A stretch of 64,000 bases of DNA from a virus. Under the pieces are notes generated by a model. That model searched no databases. It was not told the origin of the DNA and worked only from the letters and a program-made list of their open reading frames with translations. A program made the position numbers and the translations under genes. The stretch covers positions 40,758-104,757 of IMG/VR virus record IMGVR_UViG_3300010354_000053; one strand, written 5' to 3'. Positions 2,246 to 61,832 of this stretch are shown here, piece by piece. The stretch's first letter is position 1. Each line of letters opens with the position of its first letter.

Positions 2246-2252
2246 GGATTGC

Positions 2253-2705
2253 ATGAAAGTTTTATTTATTTGTACGGGTAACAAGTTTCGTAGTCCAACT
2301 GCGGAACATATTATGAAATGCCTAGCCCCGCATTTAGAAGTTAAATCGGCTGGAACAGCGGAAGGCGCTCATAAAAACTATTTAATGGCCAAAAAAATGC
2401 GTCGTTGTTTAATTGAATTAGGTTATCCTGAGCCCGCAATACGTTCTCAGCATCTGACGGCGGAATTAATGGAGTGGGCAGATATTGTTTTATATATGGC
2501 CCCTACACATTTCAACTATATGTACAAAAATCATGTCCAATTTATACATAAATGCAGGCCGCTCTACACCGTCCTGCCAGACCTTGATTTAAAACGAATT
2601 GAAGACCCTGCTTTTATTAAAAAGCATGAAGATGTTATGGAAGTAACTAAAATTATTGAAGATTCGATTAAAAAAATACTAAACGATGAAGCAAAACTAA
2701 TTTAA
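2253..2705 (+). CDS. Low-molecular-weight protein tyrosine phosphatase/ArsC-family protein
   Basis: VLFICTGNKFRSPTAE P-loop (CX5R), SAGT, WADIVLYM, IEDP. Confidence 0.88.
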   Translation: MKVLFICTGNKFRSPTAEHIMKCLAPHLEVKSAGTAEGAHKNYLMAKKMRRCLIELGYPEPAIRSQHLTAELMEWADIVLYMAPTHFNYMYKNHVQFIHKCRPLYTVLPDLDLKRIEDPAFIKKHEDVMEVTKIIEDSIKKILNDEAKLI

Positions 2706-2935
2706 ACTTCGGAATTACCGATCTTATTCTTTTGACGAGAACCTGTTGGAATAGATGTACCCGGAAGTTTAGGAGCTTCTGGCATTTTTATTTCTGAAGT
2801 TTTAACTGTAGTTTTTTTAGAAGTAGAAGATACAGAACCGTCAAGAATTTTGTACATTCTGTCTTGTACAGTTTCTGCAGGTGTGGATTTAGTCATTTTC
2901 TTGCACAGTTCGACTATTTCTAACAGTTTGTTCAA
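2702..2935 (-). CDS. Hypothetical protein
   Basis: 77-aa ORF in the minus-strand operon. Confidence 0.5.
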   Translation of the reverse strand: MNKLLEIVELCKKMTKSTPAETVQDRMYKILDGSVSSTSKKTTVKTSEIKMPEAPKLPGTSIPTGSRQKNKIGNSEV

Positions 2936-3425
2936 GTTCGGCCTCTGTTACAATCCAAGGTGGTACGCAAACCATTTTATGCTCTATTTTACCATATTGG
3001 ATATTAGATAAAAAAGGCTTCATGAGTTCTTGTTCATCTTGATGGCGATTTTCTTTAATATAACCAATGTTATCGATATTTTTATCCAGTAATTTAGACA
3101 TACAAGCCATACAAGGCTGAACACTCACAATAAATTGGTATTTATGGATATTGATTGTTTGAATCATCTTTTCCAGAAGATCTGTCTCCGCATGGCGAAT
3201 TAAGAATTTTTTAGCAGGATTTTTATCAATATTTAACTCGGCAAGAGCTTTTGAATTTTTTTCAAAAGCAGAAATTATCTTGTTAACGCCATAAGCAATA
3301 ACAGAATTTGTGGATGTATCTACAGCAATTGCGACTACCTGAACTAGAGGATCACTACTTCGTTTTTTAAGAACGTCAAATAGGATCTCGGTACTAACTA
3401 CAGGGAAGGAGCCGTAGACAAACAT
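2889..3425 (-). CDS. dCMP deaminase-like zinc-dependent deaminase
   Basis: HAE and PCxxC (RHAETD...QPCMAC) motifs; KRSSDP..QV.A N-terminal pattern. Confidence 0.8.
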   Translation of the reverse strand: MFVYGSFPVVSTEILFDVLKKRSSDPLVQVVAIAVDTSTNSVIAYGVNKIISAFEKNSKALAELNIDKNPAKKFLIRHAETDLLEKMIQTINIHKYQFIVSVQPCMACMSKLLDKNIDNIGYIKENRHQDEQELMKPFLSNIQYGKIEHKMVCVPPWIVTEAELEQTVRNSRTVQEND

Positions 3426-4036
3426 TCTTTAATTCCTTGTTGTAGTTTTTGTACTACTTGTTCGGGTGAATCTTCAAAATCTACTTTTACGAGAGTAACA
3501 GGAGCGCGACATAAATCCAAGAAATAACCTACGCACATCTTTGCCCTATCCATAAACACTTGAACATTATTGAATGTCAAGTCAGGAAGTCTTTCTTCAA
3601 CAATACCAGCATTTTTTCTTCGCAAAGAAAGACGTTCTCTAATCTTTTCTACAGTAAAATCGTAGTGTACAACAACGACTTTAATGTCTTCTTTATGGCG
3701 ATATTCATTAACCATTTCTACCCAACGAGACGTAGACATAACGCCATCGATAATAACTGTATCTGACAGCTCGAGAGCATCAAAGAAACCTGTTCTAACT
3801 AGCGATGGTGTAGTTATGGAATCTGTGCCAGAATTTTTATTACCAACCAAAACACAATTATCATATTGAACAATACTATATTTCTGCTCAATTGTAGCTC
3901 CCCTGTTGGGCATACGTTTTTTAATAAATTTACCCATTTTAGAAATTTCTTTGCCATCTCCTTGGCAAAAAGTATTTCTGGTGGTGGTTTTGCCGGTTGC
4001 ACCTGCGCCCATTAGAAAAATTGCTACTTTAGTCAT
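3398..4036 (-). CDS. P-loop nucleotide kinase, candidate 5-hmdU DNA kinase
   Basis: Walker A GAGATGKTT at the N-terminus, GTDSI motif, VIIDG Walker B, ERLSLRR lid; two genes from the amino acid:DNA transferase. Confidence 0.72.
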   Translation of the reverse strand: MTKVAIFLMGAGATGKTTTRNTFCQGDGKEISKMGKFIKKRMPNRGATIEQKYSIVQYDNCVLVGNKNSGTDSITTPSLVRTGFFDALELSDTVIIDGVMSTSRWVEMVNEYRHKEDIKVVVVHYDFTVEKIRERLSLRRKNAGIVEERLPDLTFNNVQVFMDRAKMCVGYFLDLCRAPVTLVKVDFEDSPEQVVQKLQQGIKECLSTAPSL

Positions 4037-4403
4037 GAAAGCCCTCAATATACTCTTGATTTGTTTTATGGCATTTAAAACAAATTCTGTTTCCGTTTGG
4101 TGAAAAGAAAACATTGTTGCATTTTAAACAATTTCTATTTTTTGCAATGGCAGAACCGTGTTCTGAAAAAAACTTCTCGTCCGCTTTTCGTAGTTCTTCC
4201 ATAAGCTGTTTGTGTCGCTCTTTACGTCTATTTGACGTTCGCTCTTTATTCTTTTTTATTTTTTCTGTTAAATCAATCCAGTTTAAATTATGTTGAATAA
4301 CATAATTTTGCATGAATGATTCATGATTATCAATGGATGGTACTGGAATATTGAGAGTTTTGCAAAACATTTTTAATGTAATTTTAGTTTCATTAACAAT
4401 CAT
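4029..4403 (-). CDS. Hypothetical protein with C-terminal zinc ribbon
   Basis: CLKC...ICFKC. Confidence 0.55.
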   Translation of the reverse strand: MIVNETKITLKMFCKTLNIPVPSIDNHESFMQNYVIQHNLNWIDLTEKIKKNKERTSNRRKERHKQLMEELRKADEKFFSEHGSAIAKNRNCLKCNNVFFSPNGNRICFKCHKTNQEYIEGFHD

Positions 4404-4413
4404 TACTCTGCCC

Positions 4414-4743
4414 TTATTCTAATTCAGCACCCATGTCTACGATACCTTCTTTCTGCAACAACGAAAGGGCTAACACTCGTTTAGAATCTGCAAAATTTCT
4501 TGTTTCATTGAAGGCACTGCGAAAAGTTTGCAGAACTTCTTGAGCAGCTTTAAATTCCGAATTAGCTTCCATTTCTTTCTTTGCCTTCAAAACATGCGCA
4601 TTCTGTTCTGCAATGATCTGTTTTAGTTTATCGACGTTATAAGTTTTTAGCATTTGCAATTCATCGTAAGAATAATTCTTTACAAACGCTTTTTCAATAT
4701 CACTCAGATGGCTGTACTTATTTGACTTACTCTTCTTTCTCAT
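4414..4743 (-). CDS. Hypothetical coiled-coil protein
   Basis: 109-aa helical ORF in operon. Confidence 0.55.
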   Translation of the reverse strand: MRKKSKSNKYSHLSDIEKAFVKNYSYDELQMLKTYNVDKLKQIIAEQNAHVLKAKKEMEANSEFKAAQEVLQTFRSAFNETRNFADSKRVLALSLLQKEGIVDMGAELE

Positions 4744-5603
4744 TTAACATCCTCCACAAAAAGTAATTGTTTCGTTTTAATGTATGCAGTTTTTTCTTTT
4801 ACTGAAAAATGGTGTTGTAAAAACTTATGATCAAATTCACATTCATCTATTAAATTCCAAAATACGTTATCTGAATACAATTCTGGTTTTTTAAGAACTA
4901 AAAATTCATTAATGTCATGTCCAACTACATAACTCCCCTTGTGCAGTATTTTAGGCACTTTACACAAACAGCTTTCTACTTGACCAATCGGCGCGTTCCA
5001 AATTTTTGATAAATTCCAACCCAAAGCTTCCCATTCTGGGATTATGTCTTTAGTAAATTTTTGATTAATACCATATAGGTAACGAAGTCCAAATACTGGT
5101 CCAGTATTTTTGTTAGGATCAGAGCTTTCGATTCCTAACCCATTAATACGAAAGCTTTTATATCCAAGCGTTTGATCCATGAGTTCACAAGTTTTATAGC
5201 AGGCCCAATCACCAAAATATGGAATAGTCTTGAATAACTCTCTTCCGCTGTTAAAATCTAACTGCTCTGTTTTAAGCGTTGATTCAACTGTTAACCATCT
5301 ATCAAAAGCTTTTTCAAAATTTTCAGTTCGTCGCACTTGTGGTGTTCGACCACGTTCCATTCCAAACTTACTGATTTTTTCAAACATCTGAATGGGTGTT
5401 TTACCTTCAGCAATTCCCCGCATGAATAAAACCATGCTTTCGATAGAATAGTAATATACGTACATGAAAATTGCGGTTTCGGGGTCAAATTTTTCGTGAT
5501 TAATAATTGATTTTAGAAAAGGATAAACAGGGTCAACATCTTGTGTGCGAATTAAAGCTAAGCTAGCCTTCTCGAAATCAGAAAAGTTAAATAGATGTTG
5601 CAT
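4740..5603 (-). CDS. Amino acid:DNA transferase (aGPT-Pplase2/ADDT family)
   Basis: LIRTQDVDPVY, G.ER, FGDWACYK..E, VESCLCK, GSYVVGHDI motifs recalled for this HhH-glycosylase-like family; start uncertain (5603 or 5654). Confidence 0.8.
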   Translation of the reverse strand: MQHLFNFSDFEKASLALIRTQDVDPVYPFLKSIINHEKFDPETAIFMYVYYYSIESMVLFMRGIAEGKTPIQMFEKISKFGMERGRTPQVRRTENFEKAFDRWLTVESTLKTEQLDFNSGRELFKTIPYFGDWACYKTCELMDQTLGYKSFRINGLGIESSDPNKNTGPVFGLRYLYGINQKFTKDIIPEWEALGWNLSKIWNAPIGQVESCLCKVPKILHKGSYVVGHDINEFLVLKKPELYSDNVFWNLIDECEFDHKFLQHHFSVKEKTAYIKTKQLLFVEDVK

Positions 5604-6492
5604 ATAAATACTCTTGAACGCCGTCAGCAAGTTCTTTAATGTATGTTGGAGCATGGCGTAAGCCGTTTGCAGATTTTGGAGTTACATACATACAATTACC
5701 TTCTTGAATAAACGCATGTAAATAGTCTTCCATATAAGCTGGCCTCCAGCCTGTTTTTGGCTCTCCCGTTATTTCAATACTTACCTGGCCATTGGTTACT
5801 TTAGAAATATGCTCAATAATTTTTTGAATTTTATCTTTAATTTCTAAATCTTTTTGTTCTTTTTGATAAATAAAATGAGTACCAAGATAATAGGCATCGG
5901 TAGTGGGTTTTGGATATAGATACGCATTAATAAAACGACCTTCTTTTGCATTTAAACAAAATCTTGGATAACGATCAAATACTTCTCCGCTTGGCTTGCA
6001 CTCTACCGACCATCCCCAACGATAATCGGTAGGTTTATATTTATGAAAACCATTAGCGTGAATAATAAGGCGATTTGTTGGAGTTTTATTTATGCGAGAA
6101 GAAAAGAAAAAATCTTGGGTAAACTGCACAAACGCTTGTACATTAACATGCATTGATTGTTTGTTTAAAACTTTAATATTACCTATAGTTTGCACGTACC
6201 TGAGTTCTTTAGAATTATTATGATGCGGAATGCTTTTTTGGGTATATCCGTAAGGGACAGCTTCTGAAAAAAGAATAATTGGTCTGCGGTCTGTTTGGCT
6301 GAACGATTGTAGCCAAAGGTTATAATTAATTGCATCTAGCTCTTCACCTGATGGGTAAATACACCCAGTACTTGCCTTCCATGCACCGGGTGAATCGTCG
6401 TCTTCCCACGAAAACATAATTTTTCTACTAGTAAGCTCCCAAGCAAGAAGTGAACCAATCAATCCAAAGCCTTTAATATGTACTGTAGACAT
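5587..6492 (-). CDS. FAD-dependent oxidoreductase (DAO/glycine oxidase-like), candidate flavin-dependent lyase
   Basis: N-terminal GFGLIGSLLAWEL Rossmann motif, GAWKASTG, C-terminal GWRP and NGLRHAP. Confidence 0.8.
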   Translation of the reverse strand: MSTVHIKGFGLIGSLLAWELTSRKIMFSWEDDDSPGAWKASTGCIYPSGEELDAINYNLWLQSFSQTDRRPIILFSEAVPYGYTQKSIPHHNNSKELRYVQTIGNIKVLNKQSMHVNVQAFVQFTQDFFFSSRINKTPTNRLIIHANGFHKYKPTDYRWGWSVECKPSGEVFDRYPRFCLNAKEGRFINAYLYPKPTTDAYYLGTHFIYQKEQKDLEIKDKIQKIIEHISKVTNGQVSIEITGEPKTGWRPAYMEDYLHAFIQEGNCMYVTPKSANGLRHAPTYIKELADGVQEYLYATSI

Positions 6493-16436: not shown

Positions 16437-17104
16437 TGATAATGATCACGGACGATATTTATAATAAAAGCATTTATCCGCAGTGCGATTTTAGCATCAT
16501 TGAATTGCCCCTTGAGTCCAAAGACGCTAAAAAAATGTACCAGCAGCTGTATAAAACTCAAAAAAATAACCATATTTCCCTTCAATACAGCAGACTTCCA
16601 AAAAAACTGCGCCTCAAAGCTATGAGCAATGTTTATTTGGGCGATGAAATTGGTTTTAAATTTTATGATTATATAACAATTGTTTCGCAGCAGCCGTGTA
16701 GGCAGCCTCCTAATCATTTATCCCCACTTGGAGAAGTCGGCATCTTATTTACTAAGAACGAAGAGCCGAATACTAAAACAACCAACTGGTTTAATCCCGA
16801 AATTGGCGATTGCACAAACGTTTGGGATGTTAGTTTTCAGCCAAAAGAGGGAAGCGGGCAGACTGTATCAAAAAAATTTGCGTGGGAGATAGGTTATCTT
16901 TTAGCAAATTTAGCGAGTCCGCTCATTTGTAGAAAATTTTTAATACTGGGTCTGCCTGAGTTGTCAATGGCAAGGTTTGCATTACATTCAAACTTGCAAA
17001 TGTATGCAATAACTTCAGATGAGTTTACGGCTAATAAAATTATCAAAGATTATGATAAGGCGTGTAAAAGCGAGGTACAGGATAAATCATGGCAAAAGAA
17101 ATAA
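16406..17104 (+). CDS. Hypothetical protein, possibly a degenerate N6/N4 DNA methyltransferase fold
   Basis: E.GILFTK...TNVWDV...KFAWE...L..LASP pattern; no DPPY or FxGxG motif. Confidence 0.3.
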   Translation: MQITSADGRIVIMITDDIYNKSIYPQCDFSIIELPLESKDAKKMYQQLYKTQKNNHISLQYSRLPKKLRLKAMSNVYLGDEIGFKFYDYITIVSQQPCRQPPNHLSPLGEVGILFTKNEEPNTKTTNWFNPEIGDCTNVWDVSFQPKEGSGQTVSKKFAWEIGYLLANLASPLICRKFLILGLPELSMARFALHSNLQMYAITSDEFTANKIIKDYDKACKSEVQDKSWQKK

Positions 17105-18699
17105 AATATGGACACGAGGCAAGAAATAAAGCCGTTCAAGCATTGGAAGAAATTTCCTATATTGTTGGCAGTACTCTTGGGCCTGGTGGTAAAACTGTTC
17201 TTTTAAGTCGTCGTAATTCTGCCGATGAAATTTCTGTTTCTCATACTAAAGACGGGTTTAATGTATTAAACAGTTTGCGTTATACCGATCCGGTATTTGA
17301 CGCCGTGCATAAACTTTGCCTACAGGCTAGTGCAAACTCGGTTGTGTCATCCGGAGACGGCACAACTTCAACTATTGTAATGGCTGCAGCTTTTGCTAAG
17401 GCTCTGGTCAATAGTGGAAATAATCCACAGGCGGCAGCTCGAAAGTTTCGCAAAGAAATTCAAAATGCTATAGAGGCTATTAAAAGCGAAGCTGTGGCTA
17501 GTGATGAAGCAGTTTATAAAGTGGCGCTTACTAGTGCTAACGGAGATGAGGAGCTTACTAAGTTTGTAATGGATGCAGTATCTCAAAGCTCAGCTTATGG
17601 AACTGTAATTGTAGAAAAGAACCCTATGTCTAAAGATCCTTATAGGATTGATAAGGAATACGGTTACCAAGCTGGCACAGGATACAGCTATTATCTGCCA
17701 TTTGCGCAAAGCATTCGACCAAACTTAGCAAATAATGCCGAGTTTACTCTTAAAAAATGCCATGTATTGCCATATAACGGCGACCTAATGATGATGTCTC
17801 AAGTTAAGCCAATGCTGGAGTCTTTAGCAAGAAATGCAACCGGTGGATGGAACTTATTGATTATTTGTCATCAGATTGCTGAAGATTTGGCTGCAAATTT
17901 GGCATTTTTTAATCGACAAAACCCTAATGCAAAAGTGTTTGTTGTAAGAACCACGCCCTCGGCAGAGCTGAATGGGCAGGTCCAACAACTTAATGATATT
18001 GCCTCGTATACTGGGGCAAAAGTTATGGATGGGGGCAGTTTAACTCACTTGGTGATAGAAGATTTTGGCGACTGCCAGTCAGTTCGGATTGGACCACATA
18101 AAACTTTCATCTTAGGCAAATCTGAACGTAATTGGATTATTGAGCGAGCAGAACAAAATGAAGAATCGGCTCGCCTAGCACCAAGCCAAATGGATCGTGA
18201 CATCATTCATTCCCGTAATGCATCGCTGACTGGTGGTTGTGTCAAGCTTATTATTGGCGGTTCGTTAATGAGTGATCTACAAGAACGAGCCGACCGTGCT
18301 GATGACGCTATTAAAGCTTCGCAAGCTTGTTCACGCTCAGGAGCTCTGCCGGGCTGCGGTGCATCGTACATGCGAGCGGGGCAGCAAGCTAAGGTTTCTG
18401 AATCCGTACAGACAGCGCTTGCGAGCATTCATAATGTGATTATGACAAATTTTGGCGAAACGCCTATGAAGCATTTTGATAAAAATCAAACATATTATAT
18501 TACCGACAATGATATCCAAAAGGTCGAAAACTTTTTAGACCATGGAGTTGCTGATAGTTTTGAAACTATTCGGTCAGTTATCACAAACGCCTTTGAACTA
18601 GGTTTGTTGGTGACAAATTTAGGTGGATATAGCCTTGAAGCAGATTTAGATCAAATGGAGCAGGCGGCAAGGGCTAAAGAAATTTTAAGAGGCGTATAG
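17089..18699 (+). CDS. groEL: Chaperonin GroEL-like
   Basis: MAKEIKYG, TLGPGG, TKDG, GDGTTS, SANGD, DDAIKA, GALPGCG. Confidence 0.92.
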   Translation: MAKEIKYGHEARNKAVQALEEISYIVGSTLGPGGKTVLLSRRNSADEISVSHTKDGFNVLNSLRYTDPVFDAVHKLCLQASANSVVSSGDGTTSTIVMAAAFAKALVNSGNNPQAAARKFRKEIQNAIEAIKSEAVASDEAVYKVALTSANGDEELTKFVMDAVSQSSAYGTVIVEKNPMSKDPYRIDKEYGYQAGTGYSYYLPFAQSIRPNLANNAEFTLKKCHVLPYNGDLMMMSQVKPMLESLARNATGGWNLLIICHQIAEDLAANLAFFNRQNPNAKVFVVRTTPSAELNGQVQQLNDIASYTGAKVMDGGSLTHLVIEDFGDCQSVRIGPHKTFILGKSERNWIIERAEQNEESARLAPSQMDRDIIHSRNASLTGGCVKLIIGGSLMSDLQERADRADDAIKASQACSRSGALPGCGASYMRAGQQAKVSESVQTALASIHNVIMTNFGETPMKHFDKNQTYYITDNDIQKVENFLDHGVADSFETIRSVITNAFELGLLVTNLGGYSLEADLDQMEQAARAKEILRGV

Positions 18700-32962: not shown

Positions 32963-32991
32963 AAGGCTGGGTTTCCCCAGCCTTTTTTTTT
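32963..32991. terminator. Rho-independent terminator, probably bidirectional
   Basis: AAGGCTGGG-TTTC-CCCAGCCTT followed by T-run, A-rich on the other side; between convergent genes. Confidence 0.88.
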
Positions 32992-34048
32992 ATTTCCTAA
33001 AATGTGATCCGTTTTCTTTTACGCCATTTGCAGTAACTAAAACAAACTCAGCAATGCTATGGAATTGCTCTAAATTAGCCGCGCCGCAATAAGAAAATGC
33101 TGATCTAAGACCACCATTAATTTGTTGCAATATAGTTTGTGTTTCTGTAATTGAAGAAATTATATGAGAAGAGCCCTCTGGCGCTCTGTGACTAGCTTCT
33201 TTATTTTGGTCTTTATAAGAGCTGAGGCTTGCAGAACCTCTAAATTCATTAGGACGCTCACAAGCTGTTGAGCCGGCTAACATTCCGCCAATCATAACTG
33301 CTTTTGCACCAGCTGCTAATGCCTTAGCAATATCTCCGCTTGTTTTACAACCACCATCGGCAATTAATGGATATTTATCTGGAGAATTATTCATTATGGC
33401 TGACAGCTGAGGAAATCCGCATCCGGTCACAGTTCGAGTTTCGCAGACAGAACCTGGGCCGATTCCAATTTTGTAACCAATAATATTACTTGGTTTTCTG
33501 TGTAAAACTGATCCATTGTCTGTTACCGATTTTAAAAATGGAAAAATATCAATAAAATTACCAATTACATAATCAATGTGAGGATGATCTTCTGCAATAT
33601 CTGCAAGAAACTCTGCAACTTGCGATTGAGCGGCGTGTGCAACATCAATAACAAACGTTTTGACTCCTAATTTTTCTAGCTCATCGTGCCGCTCTCTACT
33701 TTTTTTATCAATACCGATAGATGCCCAAAAATTTATACCCTGTTTAAGTAAACTTTCGGCAATAATACAGTTTTCTTCGACACTCATAAATCGATGGAGA
33801 CAGCCGATTCCACCCGCTTGGTGCATTGCTATACACATATTATGGCCAGTAATTGTGTCCATGTTTGCAGAAATAACTGGGAGTGTAAGATTAGTATAAC
33901 GGCCAATCTTGGTTGATAAATCAACTTCTGACCTAGAAGTAATTGTCGAAAACTTTGGGACAATTAAAACATCATCAAACGTATATCCTATTTTTTGACT
34001 TAAAAATGCCATTTTGTCCTCGTTATGCACGCCATCAAAGTTCTCCAA
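32990..34048 (-). CDS. IMP dehydrogenase/GMP reductase family enzyme (no CBS domains)
   Basis: TFDDVLIVP, PVISANMDT, IDVAH, GIGPGSVCETR...G.PQLSAI, IADGG, AVMIGGMLAG. Confidence 0.9.
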   Translation of the reverse strand: MENFDGVHNEDKMAFLSQKIGYTFDDVLIVPKFSTITSRSEVDLSTKIGRYTNLTLPVISANMDTITGHNMCIAMHQAGGIGCLHRFMSVEENCIIAESLLKQGINFWASIGIDKKSRERHDELEKLGVKTFVIDVAHAAQSQVAEFLADIAEDHPHIDYVIGNFIDIFPFLKSVTDNGSVLHRKPSNIIGYKIGIGPGSVCETRTVTGCGFPQLSAIMNNSPDKYPLIADGGCKTSGDIAKALAAGAKAVMIGGMLAGSTACERPNEFRGSASLSSYKDQNKEASHRAPEGSSHIISSITETQTILQQINGGLRSAFSYCGAANLEQFHSIAEFVLVTANGVKENGSHFRK

Positions 34049-42508: not shown

Positions 42509-44428
42509 CTAGAATAAAATAGTTGCACTACCCGATTTTAACATTTTTTCTGCGTCTTCTTCGTTCTTTTTCTTAATATCTATATTGTATTCAGAAGCAT
42601 AATGAATACGCAATGCTTCTTGCATGCCTTCTACTGTAGTAAAACTAGGCTTTTTAGTATAATCAAACTGATCAGCCTGCGAAGCCTGAATTACCGATGC
42701 ATTGCTGGTTATAAATGGATCGATTGCATATCGAAGAGCGTCAGGACCATGGGTGAAATCGTCATCAGCAAATCGCGAGTAATCATACCCCATTGCCCCC
42801 TTAGCGTATGTCCAGTTTTCCATGCATTTAATTAAAAACAAATTTTTGGGGTCATCTAATATGATGAAATGCGCCTGTTGTCTCATTGCGTTCCATAATT
42901 TTGAACGAATCCATGATACGCCAGTATCAATAGTTAATGGTTTTTCTCCCCTAGCAGGCATATTCATGCTCCCCGCTACAGAAGTTGAAGATTTGTCGGC
43001 TGTGTCTGGACACAGGAGGTCAAATCCGTACTTAAGATAAATGTTTTCTTTCACAAAAGCAAGCCAGTCCGGATTTGCGTAACCGGTTGAATGTTCTGTA
43101 TGGAGAACAAGCATTTTATCGTCTGATTTTTTATATGCTATCAAAATAGCTACTGCTGGGTCAATGAATCCAAAGTCAACACCACAATGCAATCGCCAGC
43201 CATTTGCTCTTAGTTCTCTAATTAATTCATCTTTTGAAATATCACGTATGTTGCCAAATCGATCTGTAGGAAAGGTACTGAAGGCAAAGTTCCAACATTC
43301 TTGGACTGTCTTTACATGAATATTACGATTGAATTTATTGAACACAATACCCGAAGACTCAGGTTTTAAGTTAAGAATCTGTGCGTTAATCTTATCTGGA
43401 TCGCCGGCATTGAGCAGAGTATTCTTAACAAAGCCTAAGTCGCGTAGCATTTTTGATTTAGATTGTTGTTTAACTGATTTTGTTCGACAAATAGAAAATA
43501 CAGGACATGTTTTGCAGCCTTCATATGCCAATATAGATGAATATACAGCCTTAGATTCCGGATTAAGAGCATTAAATGCATTATTTGGCAATACTTCTAG
43601 CGTCTCGGGATGGACATGGAGCATACTTTGCGGTAAATCGGGCTTATGGCGCTCGGGTGGACATGTTTGCATCCAATCTACAATAGACCATTTGTGTAGT
43701 CTGATGCCTGAATTTGGCATATCTGCTTCGTCAATTTTTTGCTGGATTGGTCCAGAACCAGATTTTCTGGACGACAAGTAAATAAAGATTGGCGGTTTAC
43801 CAGAGCGGTCAGGGTCAGCAATGAAAGTTGCCTCAGAAAGAATATCTTTATCAATGAGGTCTAGCTCATCGAAAATGAGGCATGATGCACGTTGGGCGTT
43901 TGCAGACTTTTTAGTTGATACAACGACTTGTAGTTTGCTATATCCAACGGGACGATGAGGTGATGGTGGTAATCTATTAAGCTCTTTTATTCGTTTACTA
44001 TCAGTTTTTGCGAAATTAGAAATAATCGGCAAAGCGAGGTGCTTGTCCAAATAACGAATTGCGGCCAAAGATTGGTCTAAAATTGCTGCCATGTGGACTA
44101 TATCTCTGGCAAAATGAACCATAAGTAAGAATTCAATAATAGAAGATGCTAATGTTTTTGCTGAGTTACGGCTTGCAGCTACAACGAACGTTGTTCTGTT
44201 GGGATCGCCGTCTTTAGCGGCAGAATAAACGTCCCAGATAAAATCCATTGGATTAGAATTACTATTATCATCTACGGTGCAGTCCGGTAAATCAATATCT
44301 AAAAATGTCTTAATCCACTGCTTAAGCTGAGCTTTACTTTCACAAACAGCAAAAAATTGCTCTTCATACAGCTGATTTAACGCTGCATTAAGCTGATTTT
44401 CATTTGTTAATTGCTGTTTTTTATTCAT
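42509..44428 (-). CDS. Terminase large subunit
   Basis: AASRNSAKT Walker A variant, LIFDELD Walker B, GVDFGFIDP nuclease motif, HGPDALRY. Confidence 0.88.
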   Translation of the reverse strand: MNKKQQLTNENQLNAALNQLYEEQFFAVCESKAQLKQWIKTFLDIDLPDCTVDDNSNSNPMDFIWDVYSAAKDGDPNRTTFVVAASRNSAKTLASSIIEFLLMVHFARDIVHMAAILDQSLAAIRYLDKHLALPIISNFAKTDSKRIKELNRLPPSPHRPVGYSKLQVVVSTKKSANAQRASCLIFDELDLIDKDILSEATFIADPDRSGKPPIFIYLSSRKSGSGPIQQKIDEADMPNSGIRLHKWSIVDWMQTCPPERHKPDLPQSMLHVHPETLEVLPNNAFNALNPESKAVYSSILAYEGCKTCPVFSICRTKSVKQQSKSKMLRDLGFVKNTLLNAGDPDKINAQILNLKPESSGIVFNKFNRNIHVKTVQECWNFAFSTFPTDRFGNIRDISKDELIRELRANGWRLHCGVDFGFIDPAVAILIAYKKSDDKMLVLHTEHSTGYANPDWLAFVKENIYLKYGFDLLCPDTADKSSTSVAGSMNMPARGEKPLTIDTGVSWIRSKLWNAMRQQAHFIILDDPKNLFLIKCMENWTYAKGAMGYDYSRFADDDFTHGPDALRYAIDPFITSNASVIQASQADQFDYTKKPSFTTVEGMQEALRIHYASEYNIDIKKKNEEDAEKMLKSGSATILF

Positions 44429-45348
44429 AGCCCATAATACTTGCGGTTTCTTCCTTTTCCTTCAAGGAGACTGCAATATTTTCTAAACTCGCAAGCAATT
44501 CCTTCAATATTACAAGTTGTGATTAGTATTTTTTTATCATCCTTAGCTAAATAAGGAAAACTATCAACTGGTTGGTGTTTCATCAGAGTGAAGGCAACGT
44601 CTTCAGGTTTAGCTTTAGGATTGAGTATCTTACAAGTAGGGGCTGCTCCGCGACCCATTTCTAAATATTTAAACTCATCAATATATTCGGGAAATTGATA
44701 ACCAAAATCCATCATAATTTCTGTCATATGGAATGGATTTTTAAACCCTAGAATACTATGAATGCTATTTGTAAGATACTGTATGCTGTGTTTTTTGTTT
44801 GACATCAACAAATCATAAATAGGATGAACAAGTTCTGGTAATTTTTCATACAAAAATTCTTCGCGATTTTTAGCCCCAATAATTGACAATCCTGCTTGCG
44901 GAAACAAATAGGCTGTATTAAATTTAGGACCTTCTATTGAAGAAAACCTAGTTCTGGATTCTAAATTTTCAGATTTATCTAGGGAAATATTACCAGTAAT
45001 TTGAAGAGTGCTAGGCATATTAATATATCTAGCAAACATTATATTAAGTAATGCTAGTTTTTTATCGTGAAGGCACGGTTGTAGCCACTCGTGAATCCAC
45101 AATGAAACCTTATCAAGTTCTCTATAACAATTAGTGAAATAATTTCTGTTTAAAATTACATCTTCAGTCCATGGTCTAGGTTGTCCACTATCCTTAAGAT
45201 GAAAGATTTTCATTCTTTCGATTGCAAAATCCCAGTACCTTTGCTCAATCGCTGAATCTATTGCAACTTCTCGACCGTTCATCCATCCAAATTCTTGGTA
45301 TTGGTCAAAATGTTTATATAAATTTAAAGCTTTAGCTTTTGCACTCAT
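44425..45348 (-). CDS. aGPT-Pplase1 / 5-hmdU DNA kinase helical-domain family protein
   Basis: YWDFAIERMKIF...G.PRPWTEDVIL...FTNCYRELDKVS, FARYIN, GRGA, IEGIACEFRKY motifs. Confidence 0.85.
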   Translation of the reverse strand: MSAKAKALNLYKHFDQYQEFGWMNGREVAIDSAIEQRYWDFAIERMKIFHLKDSGQPRPWTEDVILNRNYFTNCYRELDKVSLWIHEWLQPCLHDKKLALLNIMFARYINMPSTLQITGNISLDKSENLESRTRFSSIEGPKFNTAYLFPQAGLSIIGAKNREEFLYEKLPELVHPIYDLLMSNKKHSIQYLTNSIHSILGFKNPFHMTEIMMDFGYQFPEYIDEFKYLEMGRGAAPTCKILNPKAKPEDVAFTLMKHQPVDSFPYLAKDDKKILITTCNIEGIACEFRKYCSLLEGKGRNRKYYGL

Positions 45349-46160: not shown

Positions 46161-49013
46161 TTAGGCAGTTACGCCGGTTGCTCGACGAGCGAGAACATCA
46201 ACCGTAATAAATTCAACTGCTTCCACAGGAAATACGCTAATTGTAACTTTGTACGTATTGCCATCAAGAATAATTGAATCAACGCTGAACTGGCGCAATG
46301 CTCCTTGGCCAACAAAACTCAATAAGATATCTTGCACTGACTTAGATACTACAGAAGGAGAAACGTCTGTCGTTCTTTCGCCAATAAAATTATCTAGAGT
46401 TGAGCGTAGTGTTTTTACGACTTCATCGACTACAAACTGAACATTTACACGTTCGTAGTACCATCCTTTTGGATCATTTTGCCTTGAACGGGTTGATAAA
46501 TCTGGAGATTCCATACGAACACCAAAACCTGTAACTGATTTAAGAACAATCAGTCCAGCTTCGATTGCTTCGTCTAATTCTTTTGTATCTGCATCAAAGT
46601 CTGGCACAAATACGTCAGAATAGAGGCTTAGATCTCCAATATGTTTTACATTTGAAACTTGGAAACTTTTTCTAAGAAGGGAAGTTCCAAGGATTGCCTG
46701 AGCGCGGCCCGCAGCAAGAGCACAAGCAAGCATCCATGGTAAAAACCACTGAGCATCGCCATTAGAGTTAATTGAACGAACCTGTTGAAATGCCATTTGA
46801 ACACGTTCGCTACTAAGTTCCGCGGCTTTTTGTTTAGCTACTGAAAATGAGCTATGGATACTGCACAACGCAAACCGTTCACGTTGAAATTGAATGCTGC
46901 TAGCAGTTTGAACATGGCCTCTAACGGCAGAATTAACTGCGTCGATTGAATATTGACTTGCTTGATCGGTTAAGCCATCTTCAATATCTTTAGTAGAATC
47001 ACGACTAAAGAGAGGAATGACCTGTGATACATCAATTTTCAGCGCAGCGTCGAGTGCTGATTGAATAGAAACTCCGGATGTTGCGCCGATTGAACCCCCT
47101 TCCAAGAATTTAGGAGAAGAAGTCACATCTGGTAGGCCAACAAGAGATGGAGATGCTGAATTCTCAACAAAGCTAATAAGTCCAAAGTTATTATCAATCA
47201 AAGATTTAAAGTCAAAATAGTCTGATTTTAAAAGACCGGGAAATGAATTAACTTCATGGCCGGTACAAATACCAACTGCCTCAACCTGATCAAGAACAGA
47301 TGGGCTAAGACTGCGCCATCTCGCATCTGGAACTCTTGCTGAATAACCAGTTTTTGTACTGATGAATGCAATCAAATCACCGATGGTGTTGTATTTTGAT
47401 AACATTACATCAAGATTAACACCAGAACCACCTGTAACAGAAGTTTTGAGCTTTTTGTCTTTTGTGATAGTAACTGAAGCTGTTGTACCCGCATAACCTA
47501 GTTCAAGAACAATACGACCACCAACAGGTGTGTTAGGAAATTGCGCCCCATCTGACAAACGAGATGCTAAAATTCTTACTCGTTTTTCAGATGCAGATCG
47601 CAAGATTACTGGTCCTACAACAGAACTAATGCCGTTTTCTCTGATATAAAAGGGCATAGTTTGACTATCAAGAGCAGTTGCTGCAACAGATACAGGATTA
47701 TTTACTGAAGAACCGGTAATGCATTTTACGGCTTTGATAACCGCCGCGCCGGCAGAAGTCACAAGCCACGCACCGACGTTTTTAGAACCTGCGCCTTTTA
47801 AAACACTATCAGAAGGGACAACAAGCAATTCACCAATCTTTGGTGCTACCGCAAATGCACCACTGCTAAGAGCGAACGTTCCTTCAGATCCATCTACAGT
47901 TAATGAAACAGAAGCGGAGAGTGATACGTTGGAAGAAACGGCTGCCTTTTTAGCAGACGTCGCCATGAATTTAGAAGGAGCCCAAATTTCTCCGCCCGGA
48001 GCATAGATCTCTGCACACGCGGCTGCACCATTTTTTGTAGTTTCTGTAACTTCAAAAGAAACAGGGGCAAAAACCATCATTTCTGCGGTAGCTGTTGCAG
48101 ATTGGTCTCCAGAAACCGCACCAGAAACTGCAACACACTCTTGAATTGTTCTTTGTCCCGCTGAAACGCAGGCGTCTAAACGATCTAGAACCATTGAAGA
48201 AGAAGTAATTGTTTGGATTTCGTAGTTACCACAATTTTCTTCGCCAGCGCCGGAAAGAACAGATGCTACTGGAATATAGACAATGTCTCCAGCAACAATA
48301 GAAGATGGGAAGGCTCCAGCAGATCTTGAAATTGTAATTTTTGTTGGGTGGTCTACGTCTGGAGAAAGGGACAAGGTTTGTCCGTCAACAAGAGCTAATG
48401 ATTTTAATTCACCACCAGAAGCAGAAAACCCAACTGCGGAAGCATTAAAAATTGCTACTACTTCTGCAACAGTCGCTTCTGGGGGAGCCAGAAATTCTTG
48501 CTCAGCGCCGCCGGATACACGAACTTTATATGCACCACCACTTGTACCCATTAGAGCTCTAGCGGTTGATTTAGGTTTAATCTCGGCAGAAGCTTGTTCG
48601 ATTTTTGCAGAAATTGCATTGCCATCTTCACCGTATTCAGCGGCAGCAATCGTCGCATAAAGGCTAGCTCCACGCATGATATTCATAGAAGCTAGGCCGG
48701 ATTCATTTGTTTTGTAAACAAAAAGGCTGTTAAGAGATCCGGTGAATGCTGGACTAGCTTGATTTGAAAACAGCATTCTTGCCGCATCAACAATTGGACC
48801 AGAACCGTAATAGTTTTTAACTGATTGATAATCCGTGAAAAAAGTACGGCCGAGGTCAAGAAGAGACCCAGGAACACCTTTTGAGGCTTCACCGATAATT
48901 AAAATATTGCGCGGGCCAGGAGCAACATTCGCTAGGTTATCTTCTACCTTTACAGAAGAATAAACACCAGGAACTACAACTCTGGTTCCGTTAATCACAG
49001 CAGATAAAGTCAT
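46161..49013 (-). CDS. Contractile tail sheath protein
   Basis: N-terminal PGVYS...IIGEA..G.P, LEGGSIG, C-terminal LDNFIGE...VFPVEAVEFITV. Confidence 0.88.
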   Translation of the reverse strand: MTLSAVINGTRVVVPGVYSSVKVEDNLANVAPGPRNILIIGEASKGVPGSLLDLGRTFFTDYQSVKNYYGSGPIVDAARMLFSNQASPAFTGSLNSLFVYKTNESGLASMNIMRGASLYATIAAAEYGEDGNAISAKIEQASAEIKPKSTARALMGTSGGAYKVRVSGGAEQEFLAPPEATVAEVVAIFNASAVGFSASGGELKSLALVDGQTLSLSPDVDHPTKITISRSAGAFPSSIVAGDIVYIPVASVLSGAGEENCGNYEIQTITSSSMVLDRLDACVSAGQRTIQECVAVSGAVSGDQSATATAEMMVFAPVSFEVTETTKNGAAACAEIYAPGGEIWAPSKFMATSAKKAAVSSNVSLSASVSLTVDGSEGTFALSSGAFAVAPKIGELLVVPSDSVLKGAGSKNVGAWLVTSAGAAVIKAVKCITGSSVNNPVSVAATALDSQTMPFYIRENGISSVVGPVILRSASEKRVRILASRLSDGAQFPNTPVGGRIVLELGYAGTTASVTITKDKKLKTSVTGGSGVNLDVMLSKYNTIGDLIAFISTKTGYSARVPDARWRSLSPSVLDQVEAVGICTGHEVNSFPGLLKSDYFDFKSLIDNNFGLISFVENSASPSLVGLPDVTSSPKFLEGGSIGATSGVSIQSALDAALKIDVSQVIPLFSRDSTKDIEDGLTDQASQYSIDAVNSAVRGHVQTASSIQFQRERFALCSIHSSFSVAKQKAAELSSERVQMAFQQVRSINSNGDAQWFLPWMLACALAAGRAQAILGTSLLRKSFQVSNVKHIGDLSLYSDVFVPDFDADTKELDEAIEAGLIVLKSVTGFGVRMESPDLSTRSRQNDPKGWYYERVNVQFVVDEVVKTLRSTLDNFIGERTTDVSPSVVSKSVQDILLSFVGQGALRQFSVDSIILDGNTYKVTISVFPVEAVEFITVDVLARRATGVTA

Positions 49014-50845: not shown

Positions 50846-51742
50846 CTATTCCGGCACGGCGCTAAACGCTCTTTCTAACAAATTTTCAAGAGTGCTTTCA
50901 AAAATAGCCTTTTCGTTTTCGTTCTGCCAATCTAAAACTTTAGAATAGATTTCTTTTCCTGAAAAGCCAGGGTGCATCCACTCAGATGTTCCTGGTTTTG
51001 CGCTCATAGTTCGAAAAATAACATACTTTGTTTTAACAACCTTAGTTTTTCGCCCAGTTGTTTCAAAAGTTTGTTCTCTTATTAGTGTCCCGACCTCGTC
51101 GCTTCTCGTTATAGATTTTTGTATGGTTCGACCTTCGGCGTCTCTTGCTTCTTTCAAGAAAGAAAATTTGGCTTCCTGCAAAACAGAATTTAATTTAGCT
51201 TGCACTTCAATTTCTTTAGACGTAAGAACTGTCTGCTGTGCAGAAAATGGCACAGCTCTTTTCTGTAGTGTCCTAAGAGTGTCTAGTTTTACATTTTTAC
51301 CAGGCATTTCTCGTGACAATGGGATCGTTTTATACGGAAATCCTTTCTTAGAAATTTTTACATTTCCTGATCCAAGAATTTTTTCTTTCATATTAAAAGG
51401 CTTTGCTCCAGCTTCAATGATTCCAATAGCGGGAGAAGATGGAGAAAAATATATATTGTTTGTATTTCCGACGGGAAAAATTTTGAATGAGGTGATGTAA
51501 GCATCTATGACATCTGGATCATCAACGCTTTGTAGAACAATCGCAAAAACCGCCTGTTCTAGACGCGTTTTTACAATTTCTCTTGTAATTTTTTCTAGAT
51601 TCTTTCGTATTTCTGCCTGCTCGAATGATTCGATATATTCAATATACTCGTCATAGAAAGACATGTCCTCGTAGAGCTCGTCTAGCTTATCCCTTCCCAT
51701 GTCCCTTTCCTTATATATATACCCCATATTACTTAAAGCCAA
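50846..51742 (-). CDS. Probable neck/tail-completion protein
   Basis: IEAGAKPFNMK...Y.TIP...FRTMS.....WMHPG pattern seen in myovirus neck proteins. Confidence 0.5.
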   Translation of the reverse strand: MALSNMGYIYKERDMGRDKLDELYEDMSFYDEYIEYIESFEQAEIRKNLEKITREIVKTRLEQAVFAIVLQSVDDPDVIDAYITSFKIFPVGNTNNIYFSPSSPAIGIIEAGAKPFNMKEKILGSGNVKISKKGFPYKTIPLSREMPGKNVKLDTLRTLQKRAVPFSAQQTVLTSKEIEVQAKLNSVLQEAKFSFLKEARDAEGRTIQKSITRSDEVGTLIREQTFETTGRKTKVVKTKYVIFRTMSAKPGTSEWMHPGFSGKEIYSKVLDWQNENEKAIFESTLENLLERAFSAVPE

Positions 51743-60776: not shown

Positions 60777-61832
60777 GTGAAAAGAATAAGTAAGGTGGAA
60801 AGAATGAGTGCAGATTTACTGATTGGAGCCCCAGACTTATTTAAAGAATATCTTCAGTCTAACCCCTATTTATTTGAGGCGGGGGCTAGTAAATCTATTA
60901 AAATGCACGAACTCATGCCGTATAACAAAACTGGGATTTTACCAGAACTAGAGCTACAGATTAGGCAACTCCATAAGAAGTATCATCCGAATATAATCAC
61001 GCCAAGCACTAAAATCGTTGTGTCAAATGGCGCAACACATATGTTAATGGCTCTACTCGGCTTGGCCGCCGATTCTTATTCTTCTGTTTATGTGCCAAAA
61101 CCATATTGGTTTAGAATTCCAGATATGGCAAAAATGCAGCATGCTAATATTACAGATCAGATTCAAACAGAAAGTCAAGTGCAACTAATTACATATCCAA
61201 ATAATCCCGATGGAAAAATTTTAAGTAATTTTGGAAGTTGGCCAAACGTATGGTATGACGCTGTTTATCACTGGCCATGGTATTTCAGAAGTCAATCAGA
61301 TTGGGAAAATAATCCGCTTCCTTCAATACCAGAAATTGCTATCTTTAGCCTCTCAAAATGCACAGGGCATTGTGGCTCTCGAATTGGATGGGCGCTAATT
61401 AATAGCGATCATCATTTAGCTAACTATTTAAATTCGTATGTTGAATATGATACGAGCGGAGTGTCAGTAGAGGCTCAGGCTCGTGCCGCAACGGTATTAG
61501 AAGTGTTTATGGCAAAAGATATCGGAAGTGAATATAAAAAACTTTTAGATGCAAGAAAAGATGAGCTACGCGAAGTGTTAAAAAAATTTTCCGATATTCA
61601 TGGAATAGAATTCAGTAATAAAAATTTTATGATTGATAATGGTATGTTCGGTTGGATTAACGATGAACACAATGCATTTTTGTATTCTGAAATCAATTTC
61701 ATGGACGGTCGAAAATGTGGGGCCGATAAAAAAGGGTTTTTACGTATAAACCTATGCGCCTCGTCAGAAAATTGGAATGAGGCTATGTTTAGATTAAACA
61801 TGTACCTATTTAATTTATGTGAGTCAATATGA
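60777..61832 (+). CDS. PLP-dependent enzyme, alliinase/tryptophan aminotransferase (TAA1/TAR)-like
   Basis: ITYPNNPDG, YDAVYHWPWY, FSLSKCTGHCGSRIGWALI (PLP lysine), GVSVEAQ.RAA.VL, G.KCGADKK.FLRINL. Confidence 0.85.
   Translation: MKRISKVERMSADLLIGAPDLFKEYLQSNPYLFEAGASKSIKMHELMPYNKTGILPELELQIRQLHKKYHPNIITPSTKIVVSNGATHMLMALLGLAADSYSSVYVPKPYWFRIPDMAKMQHANITDQIQTESQVQLITYPNNPDGKILSNFGSWPNVWYDAVYHWPWYFRSQSDWENNPLPSIPEIAIFSLSKCTGHCGSRIGWALINSDHHLANYLNSYVEYDTSGVSVEAQARAATVLEVFMAKDIGSEYKKLLDARKDELREVLKKFSDIHGIEFSNKNFMIDNGMFGWINDEHNAFLYSEINFMDGRKCGADKKGFLRINLCASSENWNEAMFRLNMYLFNLCESI

What the first reader, a model, noticed from the sequence alone, without database searches (positions are those of the whole stretch)
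60777..61832. Phage-encoded full-length homolog of plant TAA1/alliinase PLP enzymes
Seen: the protein is colinear along its whole length with Arabidopsis TAA1 as I recall it. Matches include G.P..F.EY, LPELE..IR.LH, IVV.NGAT, T.PNNPDG, D..Y.WP.Y, F.LSK.TGH.GSRIGWAL, GVS.E.Q.R.A.L and G..CG.DKK..R. The SKxTGHxGSRIGWA signature is characteristic of the alliinase/TAA family rather than ordinary class I aminotransferases. Established: TAA1 makes indole-3-pyruvate for auxin, alliinase is a C-S lyase, and the family is mainly known from plants. Inference: it is either an auxiliary metabolic gene or the PLP enzyme acting on amino-acid-modified thymidine, since other hypermodifying phages use PLP decarboxylases. 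It is also relevant to the origin of the plant family.
Basis: partly seen in the sequence, partly recalled or inferred. Interest (0 to 1): 0.85.

Follow-up and report, generated by a model that had tools for sequence, protein, structure and literature searches.

The report
Phage clade of TAA1/alliinase-type PLP enzymes
An uncultured large tailed phage encodes an intact vitamin-B6 enzyme of the family that plants use to start auxin synthesis (TAA1) and garlic uses to make allicin; it is one of hundreds of phage versions of a family so far regarded as nearly plant-specific, and it shows no family-wide tie to DNA-base modification.

Summary
ORF 60777-61832 (+), probably starting at ATG 60804 (342 aa), scores 104.9 bits on Pfam Alliinase_C against 57.7 on Aminotran_1_2. 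Its best solved relative by sequence and by predicted fold is Arabidopsis TAA1, followed by garlic alliinase. It is 32% identical to a plant TAA1-like protein along its whole length. All PLP and alpha-carboxylate residues are present, and dN/dS against a relative is 0.03.

It is not a one-off. There are 772 clusters of mostly 300-350 aa metagenomic homologues, and 56 IMG/VR phage contigs from several lineages carry one. I found no true member in cultured phages, plasmids, motif scans of 185,579 prokaryote species genomes or 802 sampled bacterial genomes. Named cellular relatives are all plants.

The gene has no conserved neighbour. The 5-hmdU kinase and amino-acid:DNA transferase genes co-occur only in the query's own lineage (4 of 45 records), and the known hypermodification PLP decarboxylases have a different fold. 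My best reading is a stand-alone auxiliary enzyme acting on free amino acids, with aminotransferase favoured over C-S lyase.

Phage and eukaryote proteins group apart from class I aminotransferases, but whether eukaryotes nest inside the phage radiation is unresolved (AU p 0.75). First-stage readers of this scan noted the same family in two other phage genomes.

The parts
60804..61832 (+). Most likely coding sequence of the Alliinase_C/TAA1-like PLP enzyme (342 aa plus stop). The longest ORF starts at GTG 60777 (351 aa).
   Evidence: ORF list. In-frame ATG with Shine-Dalgarno. Pfam Alliinase_C 5.6e-30. TAA1 is the best PDB match by sequence and by fold. dN/dS is 0.032 against L002.
60792..60799 (+). 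Shine-Dalgarno-like AAGGTGGA, 4 nt upstream of ATG 60804
   Evidence: Read directly from the sequence.
61191..61214 (+). TYPNNPDG motif. N143 (61203-61205) is invariant in the family and corresponds to the PLP O3'/substrate-binding Asn of fold-type I enzymes.
   Evidence: Translation check. Column counts: N143 207/207, P144 207/207.
61257..61283 (+). D161-x-x-Y164-x-W-P-x-Y169 motif. D161 is the PLP pyridine-N partner. The 'WP' insertion is specific to the alliinase/TAA family.
   Evidence: The motif is shared with plant TAA-like proteins and is absent from class I aminotransferase outgroups and from phage clade A.
61353..61397 (+). SKCTGHCGSRIGWAL signature. K194 (61356-61358) is the PLP Schiff-base lysine and aligns with TAA1 K217. 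R202 (61380-61382) is the phosphate-binding Arg.
   Evidence: Alignment to 3bwn. K217 is required for PLP binding in TAA1 (PMC6997161). K194 is invariant, 207/207.
61035..61037 (+). T87, which aligns with TAA1 T101 in the PLP pocket (G-A-T motif)
   Evidence: Alignment offsets. The role of T101 is given in PMC6997161. Translation check.
61743..61745 (+). R323, the conserved C-terminal Arg that binds the substrate alpha-carboxylate in fold-type I aminotransferases and lyases
   Evidence: 205/207 in the family. Invariant in A1-A3. The functional assignment rests on family knowledge and is an inference.
60921..60923 (+). Y49, a near-invariant Tyr expected to reach into the partner subunit's active site
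   Evidence: 201/207. The role is inferred from established fold-type I structures.
61458..61484 (+). GVSVEAQAR loop, shared with TAA-type plant proteins (GVSKE[AS]Q.R)

Best explanation
The gene encodes a catalytically competent fold-type I PLP enzyme of the Alliinase_C (TAA1/alliinase) family. It is carried as a stand-alone auxiliary gene by an uncultured myovirus-like phage of about 165 kb.

By inference from the family it works as a homodimer:
- K194 holds PLP as a Schiff base.
- D161, N143, Y164, T87 and R202 anchor the cofactor.
- R323, with Y49 from the partner subunit, binds the alpha-carboxylate of a free L-amino acid or 2-oxo acid.

The most likely reaction is transamination of a free amino acid, TAA1-like and possibly aromatic or otherwise hydrophobic, to its 2-oxo acid. 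This would re-route host amino-acid and keto-acid pools during infection.

Shown here: family membership, an intact active site, purifying selection, a wide phage-restricted distribution and the lack of a partner gene. Inferred: the dimer, a free amino acid as substrate, and aminotransferase rather than lyase chemistry.
For: - Family: Pfam Alliinase_C 104.9 bits against Aminotran_1_2 57.7.
- Closest structures by sequence: TAA1 2.2e-20 over nearly the full length; alliinase 3e-15 over the core only.
- Predicted fold: the AF2 model has pLDDT 94.8. TAA1 is the best match (E 1.6e-21, TM 0.79), then alliinase (8.8e-19), then class I aminotransferases (<=2e-15).
- Active site: PLP and carboxylate residues are invariant across 207 representatives.
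- TAA-like features: there is no EGF-like N-domain, and the GVS..Q.R loop is shared with TAA-type proteins.
- Selection: dN/dS is 0.032.
- Distribution: 56 phage loci carry a homologue with no conserved neighbour. Flanks are ordinary phage genes that differ by lineage.
- Charge: pI is 6.0-6.3, with no basic shift relative to the family.
- Independent labelling: ESM Atlas sister clusters are labelled 96-99% Viruses/Uroviricota.
Against: - No biochemical data exist for any phage member.
- Sequence cannot separate aminotransferase from beta-lyase chemistry in this family. Garlic alliinase is almost as close in fold.
- Similarity to TAA1 may reflect slower divergence rather than shared substrate.
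- R113 in the PYWFR motif is common in phage members (124/207) but absent in plant proteins, which hints at a different substrate.
- In this lineage the enzyme is the only recognisable PLP enzyme. No PALP-type protein is found in G000-G003, so recruitment to DNA modification here is not excluded.
Confidence: 0.45

Rival explanations
1. It is a beta-lyase (C-S lyase, alliinase-like) acting on free cysteine derivatives such as cysteine sulfoxides, cystine or cystathionine. The products would be pyruvate, ammonia and a reactive sulfur species during infection.
For: The family contains bona fide C-S lyases. Garlic alliinase is the second-best structural match (E 8.8e-19, TM 0.78), and the core motifs are shared. 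A stand-alone gene with no amino-acceptor-related partner fits a lyase as well as a transaminase.
Against: - The match to alliinase covers only the core (residues 123-246), whereas the match to TAA1 is near full length.
- There is no EGF-like domain.
- The GVS loop is TAA-like, not alliinase-like.
- There is no link to Fe-S or sulfur genes: NifU_N 0/45 and NifU 2/45 records.
Confidence: 0.25
2. In this phage lineage the enzyme tailors an amino-acid-derived thymidine hypermodification on DNA. It would act together with the 5-hmdU DNA kinase, the AADT-like protein, the FAD enzyme and the amidoligase encoded elsewhere in the genome.
For: - The genome carries a strong HMUDK_hel hit at 44425-45348 (1.8e-21).
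- At 1310-6492 there are weak ADDT (E 0.056) and DAO (0.019) hits, an LMW phosphatase and an amidoligase.
- The four closest alliinase-like copies all sit in kinase-bearing records.
- The complete relative G002 also has a thymidylate-synthase-like gene.
- No PALP-type PLP enzyme is found in this lineage.
- The modification genes of phage ViI are also dispersed (Table 1 of PMC8989533).
Against: - 41 of 45 homologue-bearing phage records, 13 of them at least 90% complete, lack both the kinase and AADT.
- Three near-complete kinase-bearing phages of other lineages lack the enzyme.
- No cultured phage has a homologue.
- The known hypermodification PLP enzymes have a different fold.
- The gene lies 15 kb and 55 kb from the modification genes.
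- The free alpha-carboxylate-binding Arg is retained, and the protein is mildly acidic with no basic shift.
Confidence: 0.1
3. It degrades or converts a host small molecule other than a standard amino acid, for example a defence signal, a sulfonium or sulfoxide compound, or a non-proteinogenic amino acid. It would act as a counter-defence or take-over function.
For: The gene is stand-alone and spread across unrelated phage lineages among early and replication genes. The phage-specific R113 suggests an extra anionic group on the substrate.
Against: There is no positive evidence. No defence-related neighbours were seen. The conserved alpha-carboxylate and PLP residues indicate only that the substrate is an alpha-amino acid.
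Confidence: 0.12
4. It is just an ordinary bacterial-type class I aminotransferase (HisC/AspC-like) picked up from a host, and the alliinase resemblance is superficial.
For: Aminotran_1_2 also scores above its cut-off (57.7 bits). A basal phage clade (clade A) scores as well or better on Aminotran_1_2 than on Alliinase_C.
Against: - Alliinase_C scores far higher for the query.
- The WP insertion and K.TGH.G.R.GW signatures are present.
- The tree separates the ingroup from six class I outgroups (SH-aLRT 96).
- The best bacterial and plasmid proteins are 20-24% identical with PSNPTG/DEIYEK motifs.
Confidence: 0.03

Closest known systems
Arabidopsis TAA1/TAR tryptophan aminotransferases (PDB 3BWN/3BWO)
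   Same: - Same Pfam family.
- Colinear over almost the whole length, about 30% identity.
- Same PLP lysine (K194 = K217) and PLP-pocket Thr (T87 = T101).
- Shared D..Y.WP.Y, K.TGH.GSRIGWAL and GVS..Q.R motifs.
- No EGF domain.
- Best fold match (TM 0.79).
   Different: The phage protein is about 50 residues shorter. It lies outside the eukaryotic clade, so it is not an orthologue. It has a phage-typical PYWFR motif with R113. It is encoded by a bacteriophage with no YUCCA-type partner known. Its activity is untested.
Garlic alliinase (alliin lyase, PDB 1LK9/2HOR)
   Same: Same family and core PLP motifs. Second-best fold match (TM 0.78).
   Different: The phage protein lacks the N-terminal EGF-like domain. 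The sequence match is limited to the core (residues 123-246). The loop after the PLP lysine differs (alliinase EGTPRETQ against GVSVEAQ).
PLP-dependent decarboxylases of thymidine hypermodification (M6 gp52, ViI gp226)
   Same: They are phage-encoded PLP enzymes, and this phage also carries a 5-hmdU kinase-type gene.
   Different: These enzymes are modelled on tryptophan synthase beta, a different PLP fold (PMC8989533). No sequence relation was found. The alliinase-like family is mostly found in phages without kinase or AADT genes.
Bacterial class I aminotransferases (Aminotran_1_2; AspC/HisC, S. aureus 2O1B)
   Same: Same fold type I and the same catalytic Lys/Asp/Arg framework.
   Different: Only 20-24% identity. 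They lack the WP insertion and the TGH signature. They are about 50 residues longer and separate in the tree (96 SH-aLRT).

Membership tests
Alliinase_C (PF04864; TAA1/TAR/alliinase family) | Profile score above the curated cut-off and above the competing Aminotran_1_2 profile | tested here: met
   104.9 bits (cut-off 22) against 57.7 bits; model positions 42-360 of 363.
Alliinase_C (PF04864; TAA1/TAR/alliinase family) | PLP lysine within the S-K-x-T-G-H-x-G-S-R-x-G-W signature | tested here: met
   SKCTGHCGSRIGWAL at residues 193-207. K194 aligns with TAA1 K217. The role of K217 is given in PMC6997161.
Alliinase_C (PF04864; TAA1/TAR/alliinase family) | D-x-x-Y-x-W-P-x-Y motif with the two-residue insertion relative to class I aminotransferases | tested here: met
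   DAVYHWPWY. The motif is shared with plant proteins and absent in the outgroups.
Alliinase_C (PF04864; TAA1/TAR/alliinase family) | Predicted fold closest to solved TAA1/alliinase structures | tested here: met
   Foldseek: 3bwo E 1.6e-21 and 1lk9 8.8e-19, against class I aminotransferases at <=2e-15. Model pLDDT 94.8.
Alliinase_C (PF04864; TAA1/TAR/alliinase family) | Tree placement with alliinase/TAA proteins, away from ordinary class I aminotransferases | tested here: met
   The ingroup is separated from six class I outgroups at SH-aLRT 96. The query sits in clade B (support 100) together with the eukaryote/plant clade.
Plant TAA1/TAR orthologues (auxin biosynthesis) | Membership of the eukaryotic/plant clade | tested here: not met
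   The query falls in a phage clade (8 rows, support 98) outside the 19-row eukaryote-like clade.
Plant TAA1/TAR orthologues (auxin biosynthesis) | L-Trp:pyruvate/2-oxoglutarate aminotransferase activity | not testable with these tools
   This needs an enzyme assay.
Alliinase proper (alliin lyase subfamily) | N-terminal EGF-like domain (Alliinase_EGF) preceding Alliinase_C | tested here: not met
   Only Alliinase_C and Aminotran_1_2 were hit. The protein begins about 10 residues before the catalytic domain.
Alliinase proper (alliin lyase subfamily) | C-S lyase activity on cysteine sulfoxides | not testable with these tools
   This needs an enzyme assay.
Thymidine-hypermodification PLP enzymes (M6 gp52 / ViI gp226 type) | Homology to the characterised decarboxylases | tested here: not met
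   Those enzymes are modelled on tryptophan synthase beta. tblastn of the query against 50,697 phage records, which include cultured hypermodifying phages, found nothing related.
Thymidine-hypermodification PLP enzymes (M6 gp52 / ViI gp226 type) | Co-occurrence with 5-HMUDK and AADT across phages | tested here: not met
   HMUDK_hel in 4 of 45 records and ADDT (weak) in 2 of 45, all in the query's lineage. 0 of 3 near-complete kinase-bearing phages of other lineages carry the enzyme.
Ordinary class I aminotransferases (Aminotran_1_2) | Best profile is Aminotran_1_2, with class I motifs (P-[SA]-N-P-T-G, S-K-x-x-x-x-x-G-x-R-x-G) | tested here: not met
   The profile scores lower. The query has PNNPDG and K.TGH.GSR.GW. 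The same superfamily relation stands.

The most novel reading that the evidence does not exclude
The TAA1/alliinase family, regarded as eukaryote- and plant-specific and central to auxin biosynthesis, has its only close non-eukaryotic relatives in a large radiation carried by tailed bacteriophages and not found in cellular prokaryotes. The eukaryotic family may then have arisen by transfer from such a phage-borne gene. Its signatures (the WP insertion and K.TGH.G.R.GW) are shared with phage clade B, while a more class-I-like phage clade A sits basal.
Probability: 0.3. Interest if true: 0.85.

Novelty: new variant of a known kind. Interest (0 to 1): 0.6.

Why it matters
First, the origin of the TAA/alliinase family, and with it the first step of plant auxin synthesis, is disputed. 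The published debate used prokaryotic 'homologues' at only about 25% identity and E about 1e-8 (PMC4754409). Reviews describe the clade as almost exclusive to plants and protists (PMC9309667; bioRxiv 2024.03.19.585368). A diverse phage clade that carries the family's own signatures, at E 1e-20 to 1e-36 against plant proteins, provides the missing close outgroup. It makes both the direction of transfer and the ancestral activity testable.

Second, it defines a widespread phage auxiliary PLP enzyme of unknown substrate. It is absent from cultured phages and from the BFVD structure set.

Third, it removes an attractive but unsupported link to thymidine hypermodification, so work on that pathway in this phage can focus on the genes at 1310-6492 and 44425-45348.

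Tried and rejected
Environmental, expression and read-level evidence could therefore not be obtained.
- The megablast search of cultured phages found nothing.
- Conserved-neighbour analysis of 56 loci found only lineage-specific synteny: terminase, portal, M15 endolysin, ClpP, CYTH, DnaB/primase, GroEL, SbcC and ligase.
NifU_N was found in 0 of 45 records and NifU in 2 of 45, so I rejected it.
- The thymidylate-synthase-like gene is in only 4 of 45 records.
- Scans of genome contigs with clade motifs found nothing. The K.TGH.G.R.GW pattern gave four hits, none related. That pattern covers only 29% of family representatives, so absence from cellular genomes is 'not found', not proven.
- The profile search of 401 Pseudomonadota and 401 Planctomycetota genomes gave only ordinary class I aminotransferases. 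One of the 401 Pseudomonadota genomes (G431) is unpublished and contributes only to that tally.
- The AU test under the mixture model did not finish in four calls. The LG+G4 test did not reject phage monophyly, so I dropped the claim that eukaryotes nest inside the phage radiation.
- The BFVD fold search gave no close viral structure. The best match was a giant-virus LL-DAP aminotransferase.
- Promoter and terminator scans were at chance level.
- The papers with TAA1 active-site detail (PMC3246337, PMC2442466) are not held, so I attempted no pocket-by-pocket substrate inference.

Full report
**Where the gene sits.** The window is the last 64 kb of a 104,757-bp IMG/VR viral contig estimated to be 64% complete. 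The genome belongs to a large tailed phage.
- Structural and assembly genes: portal, ClpP-like protease and tail-sheath-like proteins.
- Replication, repair and metabolism genes: RecA/UvsX-like, SbcCD-like, DnaB, primase, both ribonucleotide reductase subunits, a GroEL-like chaperonin, a GMP-reductase/IMPDH-family enzyme and RNase H.
- The finding lies in a long run of tightly packed plus-strand genes. Promoter and terminator scans around it are at chance level.

**The observation.**
- The ORF 60777-61832 exists.
- The first in-frame ATG (60804) follows AAGGTGGA by 4 nt. It gives 342 aa, the length of the 91%-identical metagenomic homologue P0001. I take 60804 as the start.
- Pfam scores Alliinase_C at 5.6e-30 (104.9 bits, almost the whole model) and Aminotran_1_2 at 1.6e-15.
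- The best solved relative by sequence is Arabidopsis TAA1 (2.2e-20, residues 55-343). Garlic alliinase follows at 3e-15, and class I aminotransferases reach only 7e-5 or worse.
- BLASTP to a pomegranate TAA1-like protein gives 32% identity from residue 8 to 332 of 342 (E 6e-36). This includes the N-terminal G.P..F.EY motif.
- An AlphaFold2 model built on 104 sequences is confident (pLDDT 94.8, pTM 0.92).
- Its best PDB matches are TAA1 (E 1.6e-21, TM 0.79), garlic alliinase (8.8e-19, TM 0.78) and then class I aminotransferases (<=2e-15, TM 0.67-0.73).

**Is the enzyme functional?**
- The PLP lysine K194 aligns with TAA1 K217, and T87 aligns with T101 of the TAA1 PLP pocket (roles from PMC6997161).
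- Across 207 family representatives these positions are invariant or nearly so: K194, D161, N143, P144, G204, R202, W205, Y164, Y49 and R323.
- By established knowledge of fold-type I enzymes these residues have known roles. They are the Schiff-base lysine, the pyridine-N aspartate, the O3' and phosphate ligands, the cross-subunit tyrosine and the alpha-carboxylate-binding arginine.
- Against the 93%-identical copy in L002, dN is 0.026 and dS is 0.82, so dN/dS is 0.032. The gene is under strong purifying selection.

**How widespread it is.**
- A word-based search of 5.8 billion proteins gave 60 homologues.
- A full HMMER scan of 1.84 billion cluster representatives gave 772 at E<=1e-3 and 415 at E<=1e-10, most of them 300-355 aa.
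- IMG/VR holds 56 viral loci with a relative. Their flanks carry terminase, portal, endolysin, ClpP and replication genes.
- ESM Atlas places the query beside two Alliinase_C clusters labelled 99% and 96% Viruses (Uroviricota), and one Streptophyta cluster.
- In a profile search, every hit with an organism name was a plant TAA/TAR/alliinase-domain protein. The unnamed ones sit on contigs of at most about 177 kb.

**Where I did not find it.**

| Collection searched | Result |
|---|---|
| 50,697 cultured and deposited phage records | No family member; only three weak matches (4e-4 to 7e-4) at 22-23% identity and 77% coverage |
| 72,556 plasmids | Best hits are ordinary aminotransferases at 20-24% identity |
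| BFVD viral structures | No close structure |
| 185,579 prokaryote species genomes, two motif scans | No true member |
| 401 Pseudomonadota and 401 Planctomycetota genomes, profile search | Top hits of 95 and 115 bits have PSNPTG/DEIYEK class I motifs |

The motif patterns catch only 20-29% of known members. The correct statement is 'not found in cellular prokaryotes searched', not 'absent'.

**Relation to the plant family.**
- Two signatures are shared by plant and eukaryote proteins and by most phage proteins ('clade B', which includes the query): D..Y.WP.Y and K.TGH.G.R.GW.
- These signatures are missing from class I outgroups and from a basal phage group ('clade A'), which has K..GLSG.R.G[WY].
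- Pfam agrees. Clade B phage proteins score 126-210 bits on Alliinase_C against 40-73 on Aminotran_1_2. Clade A proteins score about equally on both, or higher on Aminotran_1_2.
- I built an IQ-TREE (LG+C20 PMSF) of 100 sequences rooted on six class I aminotransferases. The results were:
  - The ingroup separates at SH-aLRT 96.
  - Clade B has support 100.
  - A eukaryote-like clade (support 93) sits next to the query's phage clade (support 98). The two are joined at only 86.
- An AU test under LG+G4 did not reject a tree with all phage and metagenome sequences held together. That tree was in fact 33 log-likelihood units better than the quick free tree, p-AU 0.75.
- So the phage and eukaryote proteins are each other's closest relatives. 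Whether eukaryotes nest within the phage radiation is open.
- The literature calls the clade almost exclusively plant or protist. The origin debate relied on prokaryotic hits at E about 1e-8.
- I found no paper describing phage members.

**The thymidine-hypermodification idea.** This phage does carry such genes:
- a strong 5-hmdU DNA kinase helical-domain hit at 44425-45348;
- at 1310-6492, an LMW phosphatase, a dCMP-deaminase-like protein, a weak amidoligase hit, and sub-threshold ADDT (E 0.056) and FAD-oxidoreductase (0.019) hits.

Several results argue against a link to the alliinase-like enzyme:
- Across 45 homologue-bearing phage records, the kinase occurs only in the four of the query's own lineage, which is 1 of 14 near-complete records. 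ADDT occurs weakly in two of the same lineage.
- Three near-complete kinase-bearing phages of other lineages lack the enzyme.
- The characterised PLP decarboxylases M6 gp52 and ViI gp226 were modelled on tryptophan synthase beta, a different fold.
- The protein is mildly acidic (pI 6.3), like the rest of the family.
- It retains the free-carboxylate arginine R323.

The one point in favour is that no PALP-type PLP enzyme is detectable in this lineage. Lineage-specific recruitment therefore cannot be excluded, and I give it about 0.1.

**Function.**
- No partner gene is conserved.
- The enzyme therefore most likely works alone on a soluble alpha-amino acid.
- I favour transamination (0.45) over beta-elimination (0.25) for three reasons. 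The match to TAA1 is full-length. The architecture lacks the alliinase EGF domain. The GVS..Q.R loop is TAA-like.
- This preference is an inference. The phage-typical R113 warns that the substrate may differ from that of TAA1.

**Verdict.** This is a real, intact member of a large, previously undescribed phage branch of the TAA1/alliinase family. The family assignment is solid, the DNA-modification role is unsupported, and the substrate is unknown. The evolutionary link to the plant family is genuine but its direction is unresolved.

Noticed in passing
window 44425-45348 (-): There is a strong 5-hmdU DNA kinase helical-domain (PF18723) gene, 1.8e-21. It is wedged between a tail-sheath-like gene (46161-49013) and a 638-aa ORF with a faint terminase hit, far from the other modification candidates. 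It is 85-93% conserved in related contigs. Homologues at 24-41% identity occur in other IMG/VR phages (L087-L094).
   Followed up: partly
window 1310-6492: This is a candidate thymidine-modification cluster:
- weak Amidoligase_2 hit (7e-4) at 1310-2245
- LMW phosphatase (5.5e-15) at 2223-2705
- dCMP-deaminase-like protein at 2889-3425
- sub-threshold ADDT (E 0.056) at 4740-5654
- sub-threshold FAD oxidoreductase (E 0.019) at 5587-6492

The gene set resembles the PaMx11-type route plus extra tailoring enzymes.
   Followed up: partly
L036, L043, L044, L051, L053, L054 (about 10.8-11.5 kb in each locus): In the class-I-like phage clade A, the aminotransferase-like gene is followed by a CYTH-domain (triphosphate tunnel) gene and preceded by a ClpP-like protease. 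This looks like lineage synteny rather than an independent association.
   Followed up: partly
proteins P0025 and P0041: Two different family members (317 and 310 aa, 36% and 31% identical to the query) are both recorded with a longest contig of 19,649 nt. One phage contig may therefore carry two paralogues.
   Followed up: no
G002 (complete 169-kb relative) at 149357-149878 and 126207-126401: The complete relative carries a thymidylate-synthase-like gene whose match is read through 2 TAA stops, and a small NifU-domain gene. Neither lies in the part of G000 that is held.
   Followed up: no
window 17089-18699, 32990-34048, 50846-51742: The phage encodes a GroEL-like chaperonin, a GMP-reductase/IMPDH-family enzyme (3.9e-71) and a protein with a faint HORMA-domain hit (E 0.0027).
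   Followed up: no
family alignment, query residues 109-113: The PYWFR motif has R113 in 124 of 207 family representatives, whereas plant proteins have Ser, Ala or Glu there. This is a possible phage-specific substrate determinant.
   Followed up: no
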